Made by a program: the position numbers. From assembly GCA_963514005.1 (NCBI GenBank), contig OY740789.1:13082001-13146000 (forward strand): a DNA stretch of 64,000 nt, read 5' to 3'. Origin of the DNA: Raja brachyura. Its lineage: Eukaryota. Below are positions 51,001 through 63,000 of this stretch, in pieces. Positions within the stretch are counted from its first letter, which is position 1; every line of letters starts with the position of its first letter.

Positions 51001-54000
51001 AGCAGGAGGGAAGGGTAGAATTGACAAGGGAGTTGCAGAGGGAACGGTCTTTGCGGAAGGCAGACGGGGGGGGGGGGGGGGAAGATGGGAAGATGTTGCG
51101 AGTGGTGGGGGTCACATTGGAGGTGGCGAAACTGGCGGAGGACTATGTGTTGTATGTGCCGGCTGGTGGGGTGAAAGGTGAGGACCAGGGGGACTCTGCC
51201 CTTGTTGCGAGTGGGGGAATGGGGAGAGAGGGCAGTGTTGCGGGGTATGGGGTGCAAGCCTCATCTATAGTGGGGGAGGGGAATCCACGTTCTCTGAAGA
51301 ATTAGGACATTTGTGATGACCTGGTGTGGAACACCTCATCCTGGGAGCAGATGCGGTGTAGACGGAGGAATTGGGAATAGGGGATGGAGTCCTTACAGGA
51401 AGCAGGGTGGGAGGAAGAGTAGTCCAGGTAGCTGTGGGAGTCAGTTGGTTGAATATTCAGTTGGTTGAATATAGTCCAACTTGTGCTCACAGACTTGTGG
51501 TCTCCTCAAATATATCCTCATTCATTTGTCTTTGCTACCATGAAAACAGAAAATCTGGGAGTCAAGCAGCATCTGTGAAGAAAAGCGGAGTTCACTTCTC
51601 TCTGCAGATGCCATTTGTTTGTTGAGTTTCTTCAGCATTTTCTGTTTATATTTCAGGTTTGTTGCTGTTTTTTGGCTTTTATGTTGTCTTGCAAGTCTTG
51701 CCCGCAGAGGACAATCATTTACAACTTCCGAGCCCTAGGATTGCCATATTGCAATGTTTACTGCCCATAAGGAAAGACAACCATACTCAAAGACCCCATC
51801 TGCTTTATCTTCTGAGGAACAGGCACAGTGGTCACACGTTGCCAAAAACCTATTCCAAAATATCAGAGACTACACTGAAGCACCGTTACTCCTTTGAGAG
51901 ATCACTCTGATCATCACCTGCAATGATGTCCTACGCAGCCTGTCCCCACTGGATTCCCTAGGAGCACTGTTGTATACCCCTCACATCACTGTAGCATACT
52001 GCCCAGTAGCTGTAAGTGTTGTAGGCACTGTAGTGTGTCCCCTCAAATGCTAGATTCAGAGACCACATTTGCTGGGTTGATTGTCAACGGCGACGATAAT
52101 CACAACACGTTAACTAACGGCAACACTACCAGTTTCAGTGTAGCGATACACAGGAAAGCCTTGCAAACAAAACCTTGTTCTGTGAATCTTGTAAATGAGG
52201 CTCTCAATTTTTATAAGAAAGAACTGCTGATGCTGTGTTTAAATCGAAGATAGACACCAGATGATGGAGTAACTCAGCGGGACCGGCAGCATCTCTGGAG
52301 AGAAGGAATGGGCGATGTTTCTGGACGAGACCCATCTTCAGACTGAAGAAGGGTCTCGACCCGAAACTTCACCCATTCATTCTCTCTGGACATGCTGCCG
52401 GCCCCGCTGAGTTACTCTCAATTTGTGCTATTCTCAATTTTTATAGGTCTTCTATTAGCAATATTAGAGCAACTCACAAATCTCCTTTACTACCATTAAT
52501 AGATTGCAATGAAACCTAGCTCAGGGTATCCATTGACAGTGCTATACCACAATTAGAGTAAAGTGCTTGGACTTTTAACAAGTAAAGTCAAACCGAAATT
52601 ACAGCAACTTCCTCCAGAAATACAGGGAACATCTTAAAATGCAGTGAAAGGACAATATTTGCATTCATGAAATGAACATAAAATCAGTTTCTTCATCATG
52701 CTTGATTGACAATCCCTTTAATAATGCTAAAAAACAGCTTAAGTGCTCAAATTTAGAAATCTACGGAAGGAATTCAAATTGCACTCACCAATGACGACAA
52801 TCATCAGGTCTCTTCTGGCAGTGCAAAATGTGATGCTAGAGGCAAAAAACACTGTTCCCACTGTGGGAAAAAAGAGTCAGAATTAAGGACACAAACTTCC
52901 CTCAACTGGGGGTAAATGGAAAAGTGTGAATAGTTTTTTTCAAAATAAATTACAAAATGTTCACATACCCATGGACCACTTTTCAATTCTGTGCCTTTGG
53001 GTCAAGTTATGAAAAAACCTAACCGTGCTCCCACTACACGTGTCCCCTCGAGGACCTTCCTTCCAAACTTGCGGTAATCAATGTAGAAGTAGCCCCAGTC
53101 GGTGAGTTTCCTGTGACTGGTCGCCAAACTGGAGCAGATCAGTTATGTTGCTGATGATTCCTAGCGATTTCAAACTGTATGGGGACAAGGAATTGGAAAG
53201 CTGATATATGACTGGTGTCAATTAAAAATGCAACCCATCTCAAACACTAATGCATTTATTAGAATGCTGAGGCTACAACAGCTTTGGCAGAGAGCAGGGA
53301 ATTAGCATACACTTTCTTAAGGTATTGTTAACTTCAACTTTAAACAAGGAAAAAAATGAATAATAAACTTTACAAGAACTATTATGTAGCATTTGGCAGA
53401 AGTGAATTGCAAAGCCAAATAAGGTGAATAAATCCATGATCTAAGCTTATGTTACGTATAGTTTTATTAAGTCTTAAGACATTGATCAGCTGCCTAGTAG
53501 AGTATTTGGAACTATGTTACACTATTCAAGAAGCAACTGGATTATGTTGTAGTGAGTAATGTGATAGCCAAACAAGAAAAAATGGTGAAGATAAGAAACC
53601 TTATCTTGCCAGTTGCTACCATGGCGGAAGAAGAAAAGTTAACTACACTGCAGAGTAATTATAGCTACATTGTCAACCTAGTAAAATTAATCCCCTCAGG
53701 TATTAAAGCAATGGGATGGTTCTGTTGTCATTTTGGGACAGATTAGGGATTGAGGGAAAGTTGACATTTGGAATAAAATTCTATCAAAATATTAGCCTAC
53801 GGATTGGGGAGATGGGGATTTAGGGTGTGGGAGGTGGTGAAATGGCAAATGAGTTTGGCCTTTTTGTCCGCTCCCTTTCTGCAAAGTATTGCCAGCATTA
53901 TTTGTTATAATTTTACAACTTAATGCATTTTTTTTTACCAGAATGCCCATTTCATCTAAGAATGTGACATATTCCCAGACGAGTCATTTTAAATTTTACC

Positions 54001-60000: not shown

Positions 60001-63000
60001 ACTTGCAATCAAGCAAAGCCTAAATATGGATACAACAATAATCTAATTTTTTTATGAATTAAACATGCACCATGCTAAAAATTAACTGTATCAGGATAAG
60101 CTACTTGCAAATTCTGTCTTGCAATCAAATCAGTTTTCAAATTTAGCAAGCAGAAGTCAGGTGCATCTCTGCATGAGGGAAACAAAAAATATTGAGGTAT
60201 ATCCACACATTTTCCATAATGGATTCCTGCCAGTTGGATAAAATAGACACAGCCGGTTGCACATGAAAATTTGGCTGCCTGCCCTGTTCTCTTTGTTGCA
60301 TCAACGGTGACCTTGGAAAAATGCCACTGTGGCAATGCATACACCCCAAATAAAAAAATAAGGCACACTGCTCACTTTCCATCGACTGACCGAAAGTACG
60401 ATGTCAAAATGTTTTTAAAATGTGACTTTGATCTTAGTTTTCAAATCCGGAGTTTAAAGATTAGCGTTCAAAACACCTGATAAACACCTCACGGGATTGA
60501 CACATTTCACTCCTTAGCACATTCTAGTCATGGTGATTTTCCACTGCAACACATTTGCATTTAGATATTGGATGCCCAATAGCTTAAATTTGTCTGGGGT
60601 GCAACAGCCACAGTAATAAAATGTAACTGACATAAAAATCATTGAACTACATAAAGTATTGGAAAACTGGAGACATTTGAAAACTGATTTATAACTTTCA
60701 TTTTATTTAGTATTTTAGTAAAGTAAAAAGATCACAAGGAGATACACAAAAGTATTTAGACAAAATAAACTCAAAACCCTGTTAGAAATGCTAATATCAG
60801 TAGTGCACAGCATTTTTTCAAGAGGTAGTTAAAAGACCAGTAAAGATAAACCAGAAATGTAAACTGGCCAGATTATAAAGCTCATATCTGGGCAGCAAAA
60901 CGTATTGGCCTAAAGAAAGACACAAAGTTCTGGAGTGACTCAACGGGTCAGGAAGCATCTGTGGAGAAAATCGATTGGTGACACTTTTTTAGACCCCACA
61001 GGTTGTGCTGAAGGAATTTAGGAACCATAAATATGGAATACATCTCAAAAGATATTCTTCACCATCACAGTCCATCTCTGTATTAGAACCTAATCTCAAC
61101 TATCTCCCTCCCCACCACCACCACCCAATTTTGATTTGACCACTTTGAGTAAACACATTCAATGCACGTAAAAAAATTCTGGAGTATTAATCTTTATCTT
61201 AGTCCACACATTTAGTTTGATATTCTGTCCTTTCTATCATTGTTATTACCCGCTGCCAACTGTTATTACCCCAATATGAGAATTAGATACAATTCTAGAA
61301 AGAGTATATTTGGAACAAACCTCTCACTTCTGGGTAAGACACAGAATGCTGGAGTAACTCAGCAGGACAGGCAGCATCTCTGGAGAGAAGGAATGGATGA
61401 CATTTCCGGTCGAGACCCTTCTTCAGACTGACGTCAAGGAGGAGGGAGATAGATGGATAAAGAAATGTGAAGGTATGAAAACAATGCAAAGGGAATGGAG
61501 ATCAAGGAAAATGCAAAATAGATTATTGTTAGCTGGGAGAAGGTACCAACAAAGCAAACAGAGATAAAATGGAGTCGGAGACAGTAAGACTGGCCGGAGA
61601 ATTGGGAAGGGATGGAGAGAGAAGGAAAGCAAGAGTTTCTTGAAGTGACTCTCTCACTTCTGAGTATTGCAACTCAAGAAGACGACAGTGACCTGGGGAG
61701 AGGACTAATGGAAATTCATCATAATGATAAACGGATAAATTGCAAGGACACGCTGCATAATTGCGGCTTATGTTTGTTGACTATCAAAGGTGAGAGTGTG
61801 ATCAAACTGAGATGACACAAAGGACCTGAAAGTTAGAGGTGATTGTTTAAGGGTGATATTCAGTAACATTTCTTCATCCGAATGGTAGTGAAAATGTGGC
61901 ATTCACCCTCCAAAGCTGCTGAGACTAGGTTAGTTAAAAAAATATCAAAACTAAGATGTGTACTAACCTATTTGGTAAGGGGATTCAAGAGGCATAAAAA
62001 AAGGCAAACTGAGTCGAGGAACAAATCAGCCCCGAATAGAAGAAACATCTGCAGCTGCATGCCCTAACTCTGGTCCTCCGTTTCGAACACTGTCCCGGAT
62101 GCCCAACAATGTTGAGAATTGGTTTAAAACTGATGTATTATGATGACAGCACCAAAGCAGCTGTATATTTTTTTCAAACAGTTGGCAATAGGAAACCCTA
62201 CAAAACCTTAGTTCGAAACAGCAAACATATTACGGAAAAGAGTAAATCAGTGTGCAGATTTTGATCCAATGCTCACAAGGCCAGCTATTCTCAATGTGTA
62301 GTTCAGCAGGAGGGATTTAGGCTTCCTACACATGTGAGAGACATGTACCTAACTTGGAACGTGTTCACAGACATAGTTCCATGTTAAATAACTATAAATA
62401 CTGTAAATAAATGCACATCAACAGTATTATGAGCTACAATGCTCCGTTTTCAGGTTTTTAAAAAAAACGTCTTCATCTACCCAAGAAAGTCATCCAAAAT
62501 GTTATAACTGGACTAATTATCTCAATTATAAAGTCAGTTTGGGGTATATCAACTACACAAGGATGCTGTTATGTGTACATGAAGCTCAGTATAAATAAAT
62601 CTCTCGTTAAGTCAAACCTCTCTGAACACTGAAAGGCTCAAAGTTAACATTTCAGGATAAATGAAAGGTCATTAACCTGGCAATTAACTAAGTTTCTCTC
62701 TCCACAGATGCCACCCTGATCTGGTGATTGTCTCCAGGATTGTATGTATTATTTTAGATTGCTAGCTTATGTAGATTGTTCTTATTCATGTATCACTGAA
62801 AACTGCCATTGTGTCTTACCTTCAAATAAGACCTTGTATTCAAGAAGGTTGTTAGCACTGAGCCTTTCTTTAATCTGTTTCTTCCATCTCAGTTCCCAGG
62901 CCAGCACCCAAAAACAAAAGGAGATCAGGAATGTCAAGATACATGTCCTCTGACCACTGCAAATCAGCATGTATAATGAATCACAAGTTTCAGAATTCAG

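What the first reader, a model, noticed from the sequence alone, without database searches (positions are those of the whole stretch)
52969..62970. AREL1 N-terminal extension (hydrophobic plus SAM-like) apparently decaying into 5'UTR
Seen in the sequence: three exons upstream of the MIVVIG start have good splice sites and phases that chain into continuous junction peptides, LFE(G|AT)VHSLEE, YHH(GT|T)LKSLG and KWSM(G|TG)GTVFF...RDLMIVVIG. The 56209-56358 exon has a frameshift with an immediate TAA, and the 52969-53174 exon has a stop and two frame changes. The 18 downstream exons are undamaged. From memory, unverified: teleost Arel1 has a long N-terminal extension with WEIRWKK, WLCSQSLEHYY and WGYYYEDY motifs, while mammalian AREL1 starts at MFYVIG. 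Inference: the extension is ancestral to jawed vertebrates and has been lost independently here, converging on the short mammalian form.
Basis: partly seen in the sequence, partly recalled or inferred. Interest (0 to 1): 0.75.

Follow-up and report, generated by a model that had tools for sequence, protein, structure and literature searches.

The report
Broken upstream exons of shark-like AREL1
An intact gene for the membrane-anchored ubiquitin ligase AREL1 is preceded by three exon-like pieces that no longer read through in frame, which may be relics of a lost front end of the protein, but this could not be checked against other species here.

Summary
The sequence facts hold. On the minus strand, exon-like segments A (62970-62820), B (56358-56209) and C (53174-52969) have good splice signals. 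Their phases chain into the exon that holds the MIVVIG start (52860-52789).

From ATG 62970 the frame stops after 58 codons at TAA 56335-56333. Exon C read plainly meets one TGA (53080-53078), or it needs a +1/-1 detour, not both.

The short AREL1 reading frame is intact: 18 exons, 2469 nt, one GC-AG intron. Filamin and HECT are found, and the best solved-structure matches are AREL1.

Threading a frame with one or two shifts is at chance level: 31% and 43% of intronic windows allow it. Yet nothing in 46.5 kb of this gene's introns equals B or C on splice scores, open-frame cover and codon use together.

"SAM-like" got no support.

Homology to long Arel1 of other vertebrates, and so the claim of ancestral presence and independent loss, could not be tested.

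New points: A spliced directly to D is in frame, and six upstream ATGs would burden a full leader.

Best reading, about 0.4: relic coding exons that now serve as leader or alternative exons.

The parts
62820..62970 (-). Exon-like segment A. ATG at 62970-62968, 50 codons (MLICSGQRTCILTFLISFCFWVLAWELRWKK..KVLFE) plus one base; donor gtaaga at 62819.
   Evidence: Donor score 6.9 (top 0.3% of 664 GT sites). Hydrophobic 17-mer with mean Kyte-Doolittle 2.11. In-frame stop upstream at 63003-63001. Weak start context (T at -3, C at +4). Unique in the window.
56209..56358 (-). Exon-like segment B, 150 nt. In the phase given by A it reads D VHSLEEC then TAA. The other frame is open over 56348-56211 (..ENSVDDSVIQEIKAVQRRLLKKLTLQKWLCAQGLEDYHH).
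   Evidence: Acceptor score 7.6 (top 0.6% of 639 AG sites), donor 0.0 (top 11%). Codon LLR of the open frame is in the top 2.4-3.8% of 288 open intronic stretches.
56333..56335 (-). TAA that ends the 58-codon frame opened at ATG 62970.
   Evidence: Read. One search gives the 7 whole codons VHSLEEC before it.
56336..56348 (-). 13-nt interval in which a one-base loss (or two-base gain) must lie if exon B was once read from acceptor 56358 into the open frame.
   Evidence: Overlap of the two open frames. The only homopolymer of 3 or more is TTT at 56348.
52969..53174 (-). Exon-like segment C, 206 nt. Its length keeps the phase from B (2) to D (1).
   Evidence: Acceptor 4.3 (top 3.3%), donor 1.7 (top 4.2%). 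A plain single-frame reading has 1 stop.
53078..53080 (-). TGA, the single stop in the plain reading frame of exon C.
53005..53142 (-). Alternative open frame inside exon C (..KLTDWGYFYIDYRKFGRKVLEGTRVVGARLGFFIT).
   Evidence: Codon LLR 0.094, reached by 10.8% of null stretches. Entry needs +1 within 53142-53081, exit needs -1 within 53077-53005.
53012..53017 (-). T6 run, the most likely place of the second frame change in exon C.
52789..52860 (-). Exon D. 56 nt open leader (.. GTVFFASSITFCTARRDL), then ATG 52804-52802 and MIVVI + G.
   Evidence: Acceptor 8.3 (top 0.2%), donor 4.9.
49764..49990 (-). AREL1 exon 2 (GIAVSIVAFFFTVKFLY.. membrane segment, then ..RNYLDPRSC..).
   Evidence: Recognised from recall of the human protein and by phase. 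No Pfam family.
47824..48061 (-). AREL1 exon 3, Filamin repeat.
   Evidence: (PF00630, E 1e-06).
46268..46437 (-). AREL1 exon 4.
   Evidence: No Pfam family.
43154..43334 (-). AREL1 exon 5.
   Evidence: No Pfam family.
41489..41733 (-). AREL1 exon 6.
   Evidence: No Pfam family.
28635..28712 (-). AREL1 exon 7.
27898..28039 (-). AREL1 exon 8.
   Evidence: No Pfam family.
26788..26909 (-). AREL1 exon 9.
   Evidence: No Pfam family.
26400..26475 (-). AREL1 exon 10.
21698..21807 (-). AREL1 exon 11.
   Evidence: No Pfam family.
20330..20509 (-). AREL1 exon 12, HECT.
   Evidence: (PF00632, E 4.5e-04, below the curated cut-off).
18293..18418 (-). AREL1 exon 13.
   Evidence: No Pfam family.
13290..13419 (-). 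AREL1 exon 14, HECT.
   Evidence: E 2.8e-12; best PDB chains 6loh_A and 6jx5_C, AREL1, E 1.1e-17.
11091..11149 (-). AREL1 exon 15.
5329..5418 (-). AREL1 exon 16, followed by a GC donor (gcaagt at 5328).
   Evidence: It aligns to 6jx5_C residues 267-296.
4168..4343 (-). AREL1 exon 17, HECT C-lobe. Its last two bases TG join C of the next exon to give the catalytic Cys codon.
   Evidence: (E 1.1e-16). It aligns to 6jx5_C residues 297-354, contiguous with the exon before.
2858..2960 (-). AREL1 last coding exon (..[19 protein letters not shown], stop).
   Evidence: (E 5.1e-08).

Best explanation
The region is the 5' part of an intact AREL1 orthologue on the minus strand.

The protein that the assembled DNA can encode:
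- It starts at ATG 52804 and has 822 codons.
- It has a membrane segment at its very N terminus, a Filamin repeat and a C-terminal HECT domain. This is the short form known from human.

Upstream lie three unique exon-like segments, A, B and C. They have real-looking splice signals and phases that lead into the start-codon exon.

I take them to be relics of a former coding leader: a hydrophobic segment followed by a helical module of about 119 codons. That leader is now disabled by small lesions:
- a one-base loss at the start of B;
- in C, either a nonsense TGA or a +1/-1 pair.

As they stand, they can only act as leader or alternative exons:
- A transcript carrying all of them opens a 58-codon upstream reading frame and puts six ATGs before the AREL1 start. 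That should depress AREL1 translation.
- Productive messages most likely skip B and C or start elsewhere.
- A spliced straight to D is in frame. It would add a 69-residue hydrophobic leader.

Shown here: the anatomy, the lesions, the intact short ORF and the gene's identity. Inferred: that A-C were once coding, that the lesions are real, and how the transcripts are built.
For: - Anatomy and junction peptides were read directly.
- Splice scores within the upstream 11 kb: A donor top 0.3%, B acceptor top 0.6%, C acceptor top 3.3%, C donor top 4.2%, D acceptor top 0.2%.
- A, B, C and D are unique in the window, while repeats lie around them.
- 0 of 26,026 AG..GT pairs of 100-250 nt in 46.5 kb of the gene's introns equal B, and 0 equal C, on acceptor, donor, open-frame cover and codon LLR together. 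On splice sites alone 6 equal B and 17 equal C.
- Exon B's open frame has a codon LLR in the top 2.4% of 288 open intronic 45-codon stretches.
- Exon lengths keep the phases: C's 206 nt takes phase 2 to phase 1. A and D are both phase 1, so A->D has 0 stops.
- The short ORF is intact: 18 exons, 2469 nt, final phase 0. Filamin and HECT are found in 5 of the 10 ORFs. AREL1 chains are the best PDB hits.
- All three lesions fall in the 356 nt of B+C, and none falls in the 2469 nt of the short ORF. If they were evenly spread assembly errors over about 3032 nt, the chance would be (356/3032)^3, about 0.002 (my arithmetic on the counts).
[quoted passage not shown] This matches the short start here (GIAVSIVAFFFTVKFLY, mean hydropathy 1.95).
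Against: - Threading is not special: 31% of intronic 150-nt windows need at most 1 shift, and 43% of 206-nt windows need at most 2.
- Codon LLR is unremarkable for A (29.5% of null stretches score as high), for the first and last parts of C (49% and 59%) and for the leader part of D (88%).
- The codon model was trained on only 816 codons of the same gene. The thresholds were set at the observed values.
- No piece matched any Pfam family at E<=10: 6 of 6 pieces without a hit, and 2 of 2.
- No relevant PDB chain was found: 0 hits, and one chance hit at E 1.5.
- The Atlas recognition values of 2142 and 1665 are below the 2300 that 91 in 100 proteins of known families reach. These were 46-residue fragments.
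- The ATG at 62970 has a poor context (T at -3, C at +4).
- Homology to any long Arel1 is unverified. No transcript evidence was available.
Confidence: 0.4

Rival explanations
1. The long form is intact in the animal. On this view the three small lesions are assembly or consensus errors, or belong to one haplotype. AREL1 here is then made with the full leader: hydrophobic segment plus helical module.
For: - Each lesion can be a single-base length change.
- The second change in exon C can sit in a T6 run (53017-53012), and the first near AAA 53109 or GGGG 53096.
- Splice sites and phases are all kept.
- No stop lies in the threaded path (minimum 1 shift for B and 2 for C).
Against: - All three changes fall in 356 nt, and none in the 2469 nt of the short ORF. 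For evenly spread errors the chance is about 0.002.
- The interval for the exon B change (56348-56336) holds no run longer than TTT.
- No reads could be examined.
Confidence: 0.15
2. A-C are ordinary non-coding leader or alternative exons, or partly chance exon-like segments, that never coded for an AREL1 extension. The apparent frames and motifs would then be coincidence, and the reader's recalled motifs unreliable.
For: - Threading with 1 and 2 shifts is at chance level (31% and 43%).
- There was no Pfam, PDB or Atlas support for any piece.
- Codon use of A and of the ends of C is not unusual.
- The start context at 62970 is weak.
- Four searches listed no paper whose title or abstract start is about an AREL1 extension or SAM domain. 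Passages of PMC3673628 give only Filamin repeats for the KIAA0317 family.
Against: - Exon B's open frame covers 92% of the exon, with codon use in the top 2.4-3.8%.
- Nothing in 46.5 kb of introns matches B or C on all four measures.
- The phases of all four junctions fit.
- By eye only, a WL..GL.DY...L...GI.....LL.F pattern runs across the B/C junction in the right phase. This was not tested, because the joined step was left out.
Confidence: 0.25
3. Part of the extension is still used. Transcripts splice A directly to D, skipping the broken B and C. The resulting AREL1 has a 69-residue leader that carries a second hydrophobic segment but no helical module.
For: - A ends and D begins in phase 1. 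The A->D reading has 0 stops.
- The A donor (6.9) and the D acceptor (8.3) are the two strongest sites of the set.
- The 56-nt leader of D is open in frame.
Against: - Equal phases are expected by chance one time in three.
- 18 open codons are expected by chance about 4 times in 10 (my estimate).
- The leader part of D has poor codon use (88% of null stretches score as high).
- The ATG 62970 context is weak.
- No transcript data were available.
Confidence: 0.2

Closest known systems
Human AREL1 (KIAA0317), an ER-resident single-pass HECT ubiquitin ligase
   Same: - The same parts in the same order: N-terminal membrane segment, Filamin repeat, C-terminal HECT domain with the catalytic Cys codon.
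- The best PDB hits of three exons are AREL1 chains 6jx5 and 6loh, at E 1e-17, 6e-13 and 6e-31. Chain positions are contiguous across the exon 16/17 junction.
- 822 codons here. The start is directly at the hydrophobic segment, as passages of PMC12864862 state for human.
   Different: - Three exon-like segments lie upstream. They chain in phase into the start exon and look like disabled coding sequence.
- Whether human has counterparts was not examined. No human sequence was used beyond what the PDB search printed.
   Different: - Here the frame is broken in B and C.
- The existence and sequence of such long forms could not be verified with any open tool. Four literature searches listed no paper on it.
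SAM (sterile alpha motif) domains, Pfam PF00536 / PF07647
   Same: Only a by-eye pattern of spaced hydrophobic and Gly residues across the B/C junction.
   Different: - There was no profile match for any single piece at E<=10.
- No PDB SAM chain was found.
- The domain would be split over two exons and two frames.
Upstream-ORF-bearing 5' leaders and unitary loss of coding exons (general knowledge)
   Same: A 58-codon upstream frame and six upstream ATGs lie ahead of an intact main ORF.
   Different: No expression or ribosome data were available. The leader's real exon make-up is unknown, and the transcription start lies outside what could be identified.

Membership tests
AREL1 / KIAA0317 family of HECT ligases | C-terminal HECT domain with the catalytic cysteine | tested here: met
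   PF00632 matched in 4 of the 10 ORFs given (profile positions 25-75, 94-167, 214-273 and 275-305). The Cys codon TG|C spans the last intron.
AREL1 / KIAA0317 family of HECT ligases | Filamin/ABP280 repeat in the N-terminal half. Passages of PMC3673628 say Filamin repeats are found only in this HECT family. | tested here: met
   PF00630, E 1e-06, 29.9 bits against a cut-off of 26.9, in ORF 48061-47789.
AREL1 / KIAA0317 family of HECT ligases | Closer to AREL1 than to other HECT ligases | tested here: met
   - AREL1 chains at E 1.1e-17, next UBE3C at 1.6e-09.
- AREL1 at 6e-31, next HACE1 at 2e-09.
- only the 2 AREL1 chains matched.
AREL1 / KIAA0317 family of HECT ligases | Transmembrane segment at the very N terminus, with the rest cytosolic (PMC12864862, passages) | tested here: met
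   MIVVI + G + GIAVSIVAFFFTVKFLY, with a 17-mer mean hydropathy of 1.95. This is hydropathy only; topology was not tested.
AREL1 / KIAA0317 family of HECT ligases | Uninterrupted reading frame over all coding exons | tested here: met
   18 exons, 2469 nt, final phase 0, no stop. One GC-AG intron is confirmed by contiguous PDB positions 296/297. Six N-terminal-half exons have no database match and rest on recall plus phase.
SAM domain (PF00536 / PF07647) | Match to the family profile | tested here: not met
   0 families for 6 of 6 pieces at E<=10. 0 families for exon C read plainly with X at the TGA, and 0 for the 63-residue ORF over exon B. The test was exon by exon only; the spliced, frame-corrected peptide was not searched.
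SAM domain (PF00536 / PF07647) | Five-helix bundle fold | not tested
   No fold was predicted. The single pieces are 31-46 residues, and a joined model was not to be made.
The Atlas gave no lead.
   Only splice-signal scores and phases could be checked.
Decayed (relic) coding exons | Disabling lesions relative to an intact ancestral frame | tested here: inconclusive
   The lesions exist as described. The ancestral frame is not known from any orthologue, and threading is at chance level.

The most novel reading that the evidence does not exclude
AREL1 began in jawed vertebrates as a longer membrane protein. Its present N-terminal anchor was then an internal membrane segment, preceded by a second hydrophobic segment (a signal or anchor) and a small helical, possibly SAM-like, module of about 119 residues. 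That front module would have been shed more than once, here by frame-breaking lesions that left the exons as a burdened 5' leader. The short ER-anchored ligase known from mammals would then be a repeatedly derived form.
Probability: 0.2. Interest if true: 0.5.

Novelty: new variant of a known kind. Interest (0 to 1): 0.3.

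Why it matters
AREL1 has recently been described as an ER-anchored ligase that tethers lysosomes (PMC12864862). What lies on the other side of its membrane anchor bears on how it is targeted and regulated.

If the three upstream exons are relics of a coding front module, two things follow. The short mammalian form is a derived, truncated one. 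This genome also catches the loss at an early stage, with the splice sites still in place.

If they are only leader exons, the finding is ordinary: an intact AREL1 orthologue with a multi-exon 5' leader rich in upstream ATGs.

Tried and rejected
- Alternative acceptor at 56341 (AG 56343-56342). It puts A, B, C and D in one frame with only the TGA left. Its score is -5.5, the median of all AG sites, and three other AGs lie between it and the pyrimidine tract. I rejected it as a likely rescue.
- Alternative acceptor inside exon C at 53128. It enters the middle frame in phase, but it still meets a stop and leaves D out of frame. Rejected.
- Acceptor-like cag at 62959-62957, inside A. Its score is -1.7, so A is more likely a first coding exon than an internal one.
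- Pfam on 6 pieces, and on exon C read with X at the TGA plus the 63-residue ORF: 0 families.
- PDB phmmer at E<=10 on four pieces: 0, 0, 0 and one chance hit (5wuc_A, E 1.5).
- ESM Atlas on two 46-residue pieces: only unnamed or unrelated clusters, with low recognition. No lead.
- Literature:
  - 'arel1' + 'SAM domain': 1 paper.
  - 'arel1' + 'sterile alpha motif': 3 papers.
  - 'arel1' + 'hect' + 'teleost': 0 papers.
  - 'arel1' + 'zebrafish': 18 papers, 15 listed. I saw listings only, and none is about an AREL1 extension by title or abstract start.
  - Passages of PMC3673628 and PMC9547173 mention only Filamin and HECT.
- My first automatic exon chains set several boundaries wrongly: too short without a length bonus, too long with one. 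Three were fixed by hand and checked against PDB positions.
- Tandem Repeats Finder on the G+C-rich block found only two short arrays.
No structure, fold search or complex job was run, because single pieces of 31-50 residues would give no usable model.

Full report
**Scope and limits**

- The window has no N.
- I do not take the window for human. The three exons compared with the human AREL1 chains in the PDB differ from them at several residues each. The introns also carry a repeat family of another kind: a 32-mer found 9 times, where 0 are expected.
The joined step was left out.
Nothing could therefore be compared with other vertebrates.

**The gene**

- AREL1 lies on the minus strand. I first recognised its exons in the ORF lists from recall of the human protein. 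That is only a lead.
- I then tested them. Pfam finds a Filamin repeat (E 1e-06) and HECT pieces in 4 further ORFs of the 10 given. The HECT pieces lie in ascending profile order 25-75, 94-167, 214-273 and 275-305. The other 5 ORFs had no family.
- Six more exons of the N-terminal half also had no family.
- The best solved-structure hits are AREL1 chains 6jx5 and 6loh, at E 1.1e-17, 6e-13 and 6e-31. They are well ahead of UBE3C and HACE1.
- Exon ends were set by a phase-consistent chain and corrected at three places.
- One intron has a GC donor (gcaagt after 5329). This is confirmed because the flanking exons align to chain positions 267-296 and 297-354 without a gap.
- The short reading frame runs from ATG 52804 over 18 exons. 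It is 2469 nt, ends in phase 0 and has no stop.
- The protein starts MIVVI-G-GIAVSIVAFFFTVKFLY, a hydrophobic segment at the extreme N terminus. [quoted passage not shown]

**The upstream segments**

| Segment | Coordinates | Length | Key points |
|---|---|---|---|
| A | 62970-62820 | 151 nt | Opens with ATG and encodes 50 codons. A 17-residue hydrophobic stretch (mean hydropathy 2.11) is followed by ELRWKKQIKER. Ends in phase 1 at a strong donor. |
| B | 56358-56209 | 150 nt | Follows a strong acceptor. |
| C | 53174-52969 | 206 nt | Its length takes phase 2 to phase 1. |
| D | 52860-52789 | 72 nt | Holds the AREL1 start at 52804. |

- In B, the phase handed on by A reads D-VHSLEEC and stops at TAA 56335-56333. 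The frame opened at 62970 is thus a 58-codon upstream ORF.
- The other frame of B is open over 92% of the exon and ends ..WLCAQGLEDYHH in phase 2.
Read plainly, the exon has exactly one stop, TGA 53080-53078.
- The alternative is a detour through the middle frame (53142-53005..KLTDWGYFYIDYRKFGRKVLEG..). This needs a +1 change within 53142-53081 and a -1 change within 53077-53005. A T6 run at 53017-53012 is the obvious site for the second.
- So C carries one stop or two shifts, not both.

**Is this more than chance?**

Against:
- The threading itself is not special. 31% of random 150-nt intronic windows can be read from the given entry to the given exit frame with one shift. 43% of 206-nt windows can be read with two.
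- Codon use was scored with a small model trained on 816 codons of this gene. It is unremarkable for A (29.5% of null stretches score as high), for both ends of C (49% and 59%) and for the leader part of D (88%).

For:
- The B and D acceptors and the A donor are in the top 0.2-0.6% of all AG or GT sites of the upstream 11 kb. The C acceptor and donor are in the top 3-4%.
- B's open frame is in the top 2.4% of 288 open intronic stretches for codon use. C's middle frame is in the top 10.8%.
- Among 26,026 AG..GT pairs of 100-250 nt in 46.5 kb of the gene's own introns, none equals B and none equals C on acceptor, donor, open-frame cover and codon score together. On splice sites alone 6 equal B and 17 equal C. 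The thresholds were set at the observed values, so this flatters the exons.
- A, B, C and D are unique sequence.

I conclude that these are probably real exons. Their former coding nature is plausible but not shown.

**'SAM-like'**

- No search supports it. Pfam gave 0 families for 6 of 6 pieces at E<=10.
- Pfam also gave 0 families for exon C read through with X at the TGA, and 0 for the 63-residue ORF over B.
- PDB phmmer gave 0 hits for three pieces and one chance hit (E 1.5) for A.
- The Atlas gave unrelated clusters with low recognition values.
- The putative domain would be split over two exons and two frames, so single pieces of 31-46 residues have little power.
- By eye, a SAM-type spacing runs across the B/C junction. 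That is an impression, not a test.

**New points**

- (a) A and D are both phase 1, so A spliced directly to D is in frame with no stop. That would add 69 residues with a second hydrophobic segment.
- (b) An AG at 56343-56342 would restore B's frame, but it scores at the median of all AG sites. I reject it.
- (c) A leader with A-D carries six ATGs before the AREL1 start. Both candidate starts have a pyrimidine at -3. A full leader should therefore depress AREL1 translation by the scanning rule (established knowledge). This argues that productive transcripts skip B and C or start elsewhere.
- (d) All three lesions lie in the 356 nt of B+C, and none lies in the 2469 nt of the short ORF. For evenly spread assembly errors that has a chance of about 0.002 (my arithmetic). 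Real mutations are thus more likely than errors, although no reads were seen.

**Literature**

- Four searches listed no paper on an AREL1 N-terminal extension or SAM domain:
  - 'arel1' with 'SAM domain': 1 paper.
  - 'arel1' with 'sterile alpha motif': 3 papers.
  - 'arel1' with 'hect' and 'teleost': 0 papers.
  - 'arel1' with 'zebrafish': 18 papers, 15 listed (listings only).
- Passages of PMC3673628 give Filamin repeats as the family's typical N-terminal domain and place the family in Metazoa and a choanoflagellate.
- Passages of PMC9547173 concern only the HECT boundaries.
- Supplements were closed.

**Verdict**

- My best reading is that A-C are relics of a coding leader that now serve as leader or alternative exons ahead of an intact, short, membrane-anchored AREL1 (confidence 0.4).
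- The rivals are:
  - assembly error with a live long form (0.15);
  - never-coding leader exons or coincidence (0.25);
  - partial use through an A-D splice (0.2), which overlaps the best reading.
- The evolutionary claim, ancestral in jawed vertebrates and lost independently here and in mammals, could not be tested at all.

Noticed in passing
window 5327-5328 (minus strand), after exon 5418-5329: One AREL1 intron uses a GC donor (AAG|gcaagt) instead of GT. The two flanking exons align to contiguous positions 296/297 of PDB chain 6jx5_C.
   Followed up: yes
window 32001-36000: A block with G+C of 0.57-0.60 and strong strand skew (GC skew -0.39 to -0.44 on the plus strand) lies inside the 12.8-kb intron between exons 41733-41489 and 28712-28635. 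It holds long G-rich open frames on the minus strand (up to 196 codons) with no Pfam family. Only two short tandem arrays were found. Its nature is unexplained.
   Followed up: partly
window 50654-50890 (minus strand), within a G+C 0.50 stretch at 50001-52000: A 79-codon ORF in the intron after the start-codon exon matches the GIY-YIG catalytic domain (PF01541, E 3.6e-05). It is probably a remnant of a mobile element that carries this nuclease. The element type was not determined.
   Followed up: partly
window 384, 8509, 10613, 13987, 22059, 40808, 42514, 52262, 61347 (starts of 32-mers, both strands): A 32-base motif recurs 9 times with up to 3 mismatches, where 0 are expected. It marks an interspersed repeat family scattered through the AREL1 introns.
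   Followed up: partly
window 63627-63829; copies at 45227-45418 and 21314-21402 in the opposite orientation: Another interspersed repeat (80-91% identity) lies about 660 nt upstream of ATG 62970. The last kilobase of the window has G+C of 0.39 and no sign of a CpG-rich promoter, so the transcription start of this gene probably lies outside the window.
   Followed up: partly
window 52861-52968 (minus strand): The intron between segment C and the start-codon exon is only 108 nt long, while the gene's other introns run from 0.5 to 12.8 kb. If retained, it meets a stop at once (G|GT ATG TGA).
   Followed up: no
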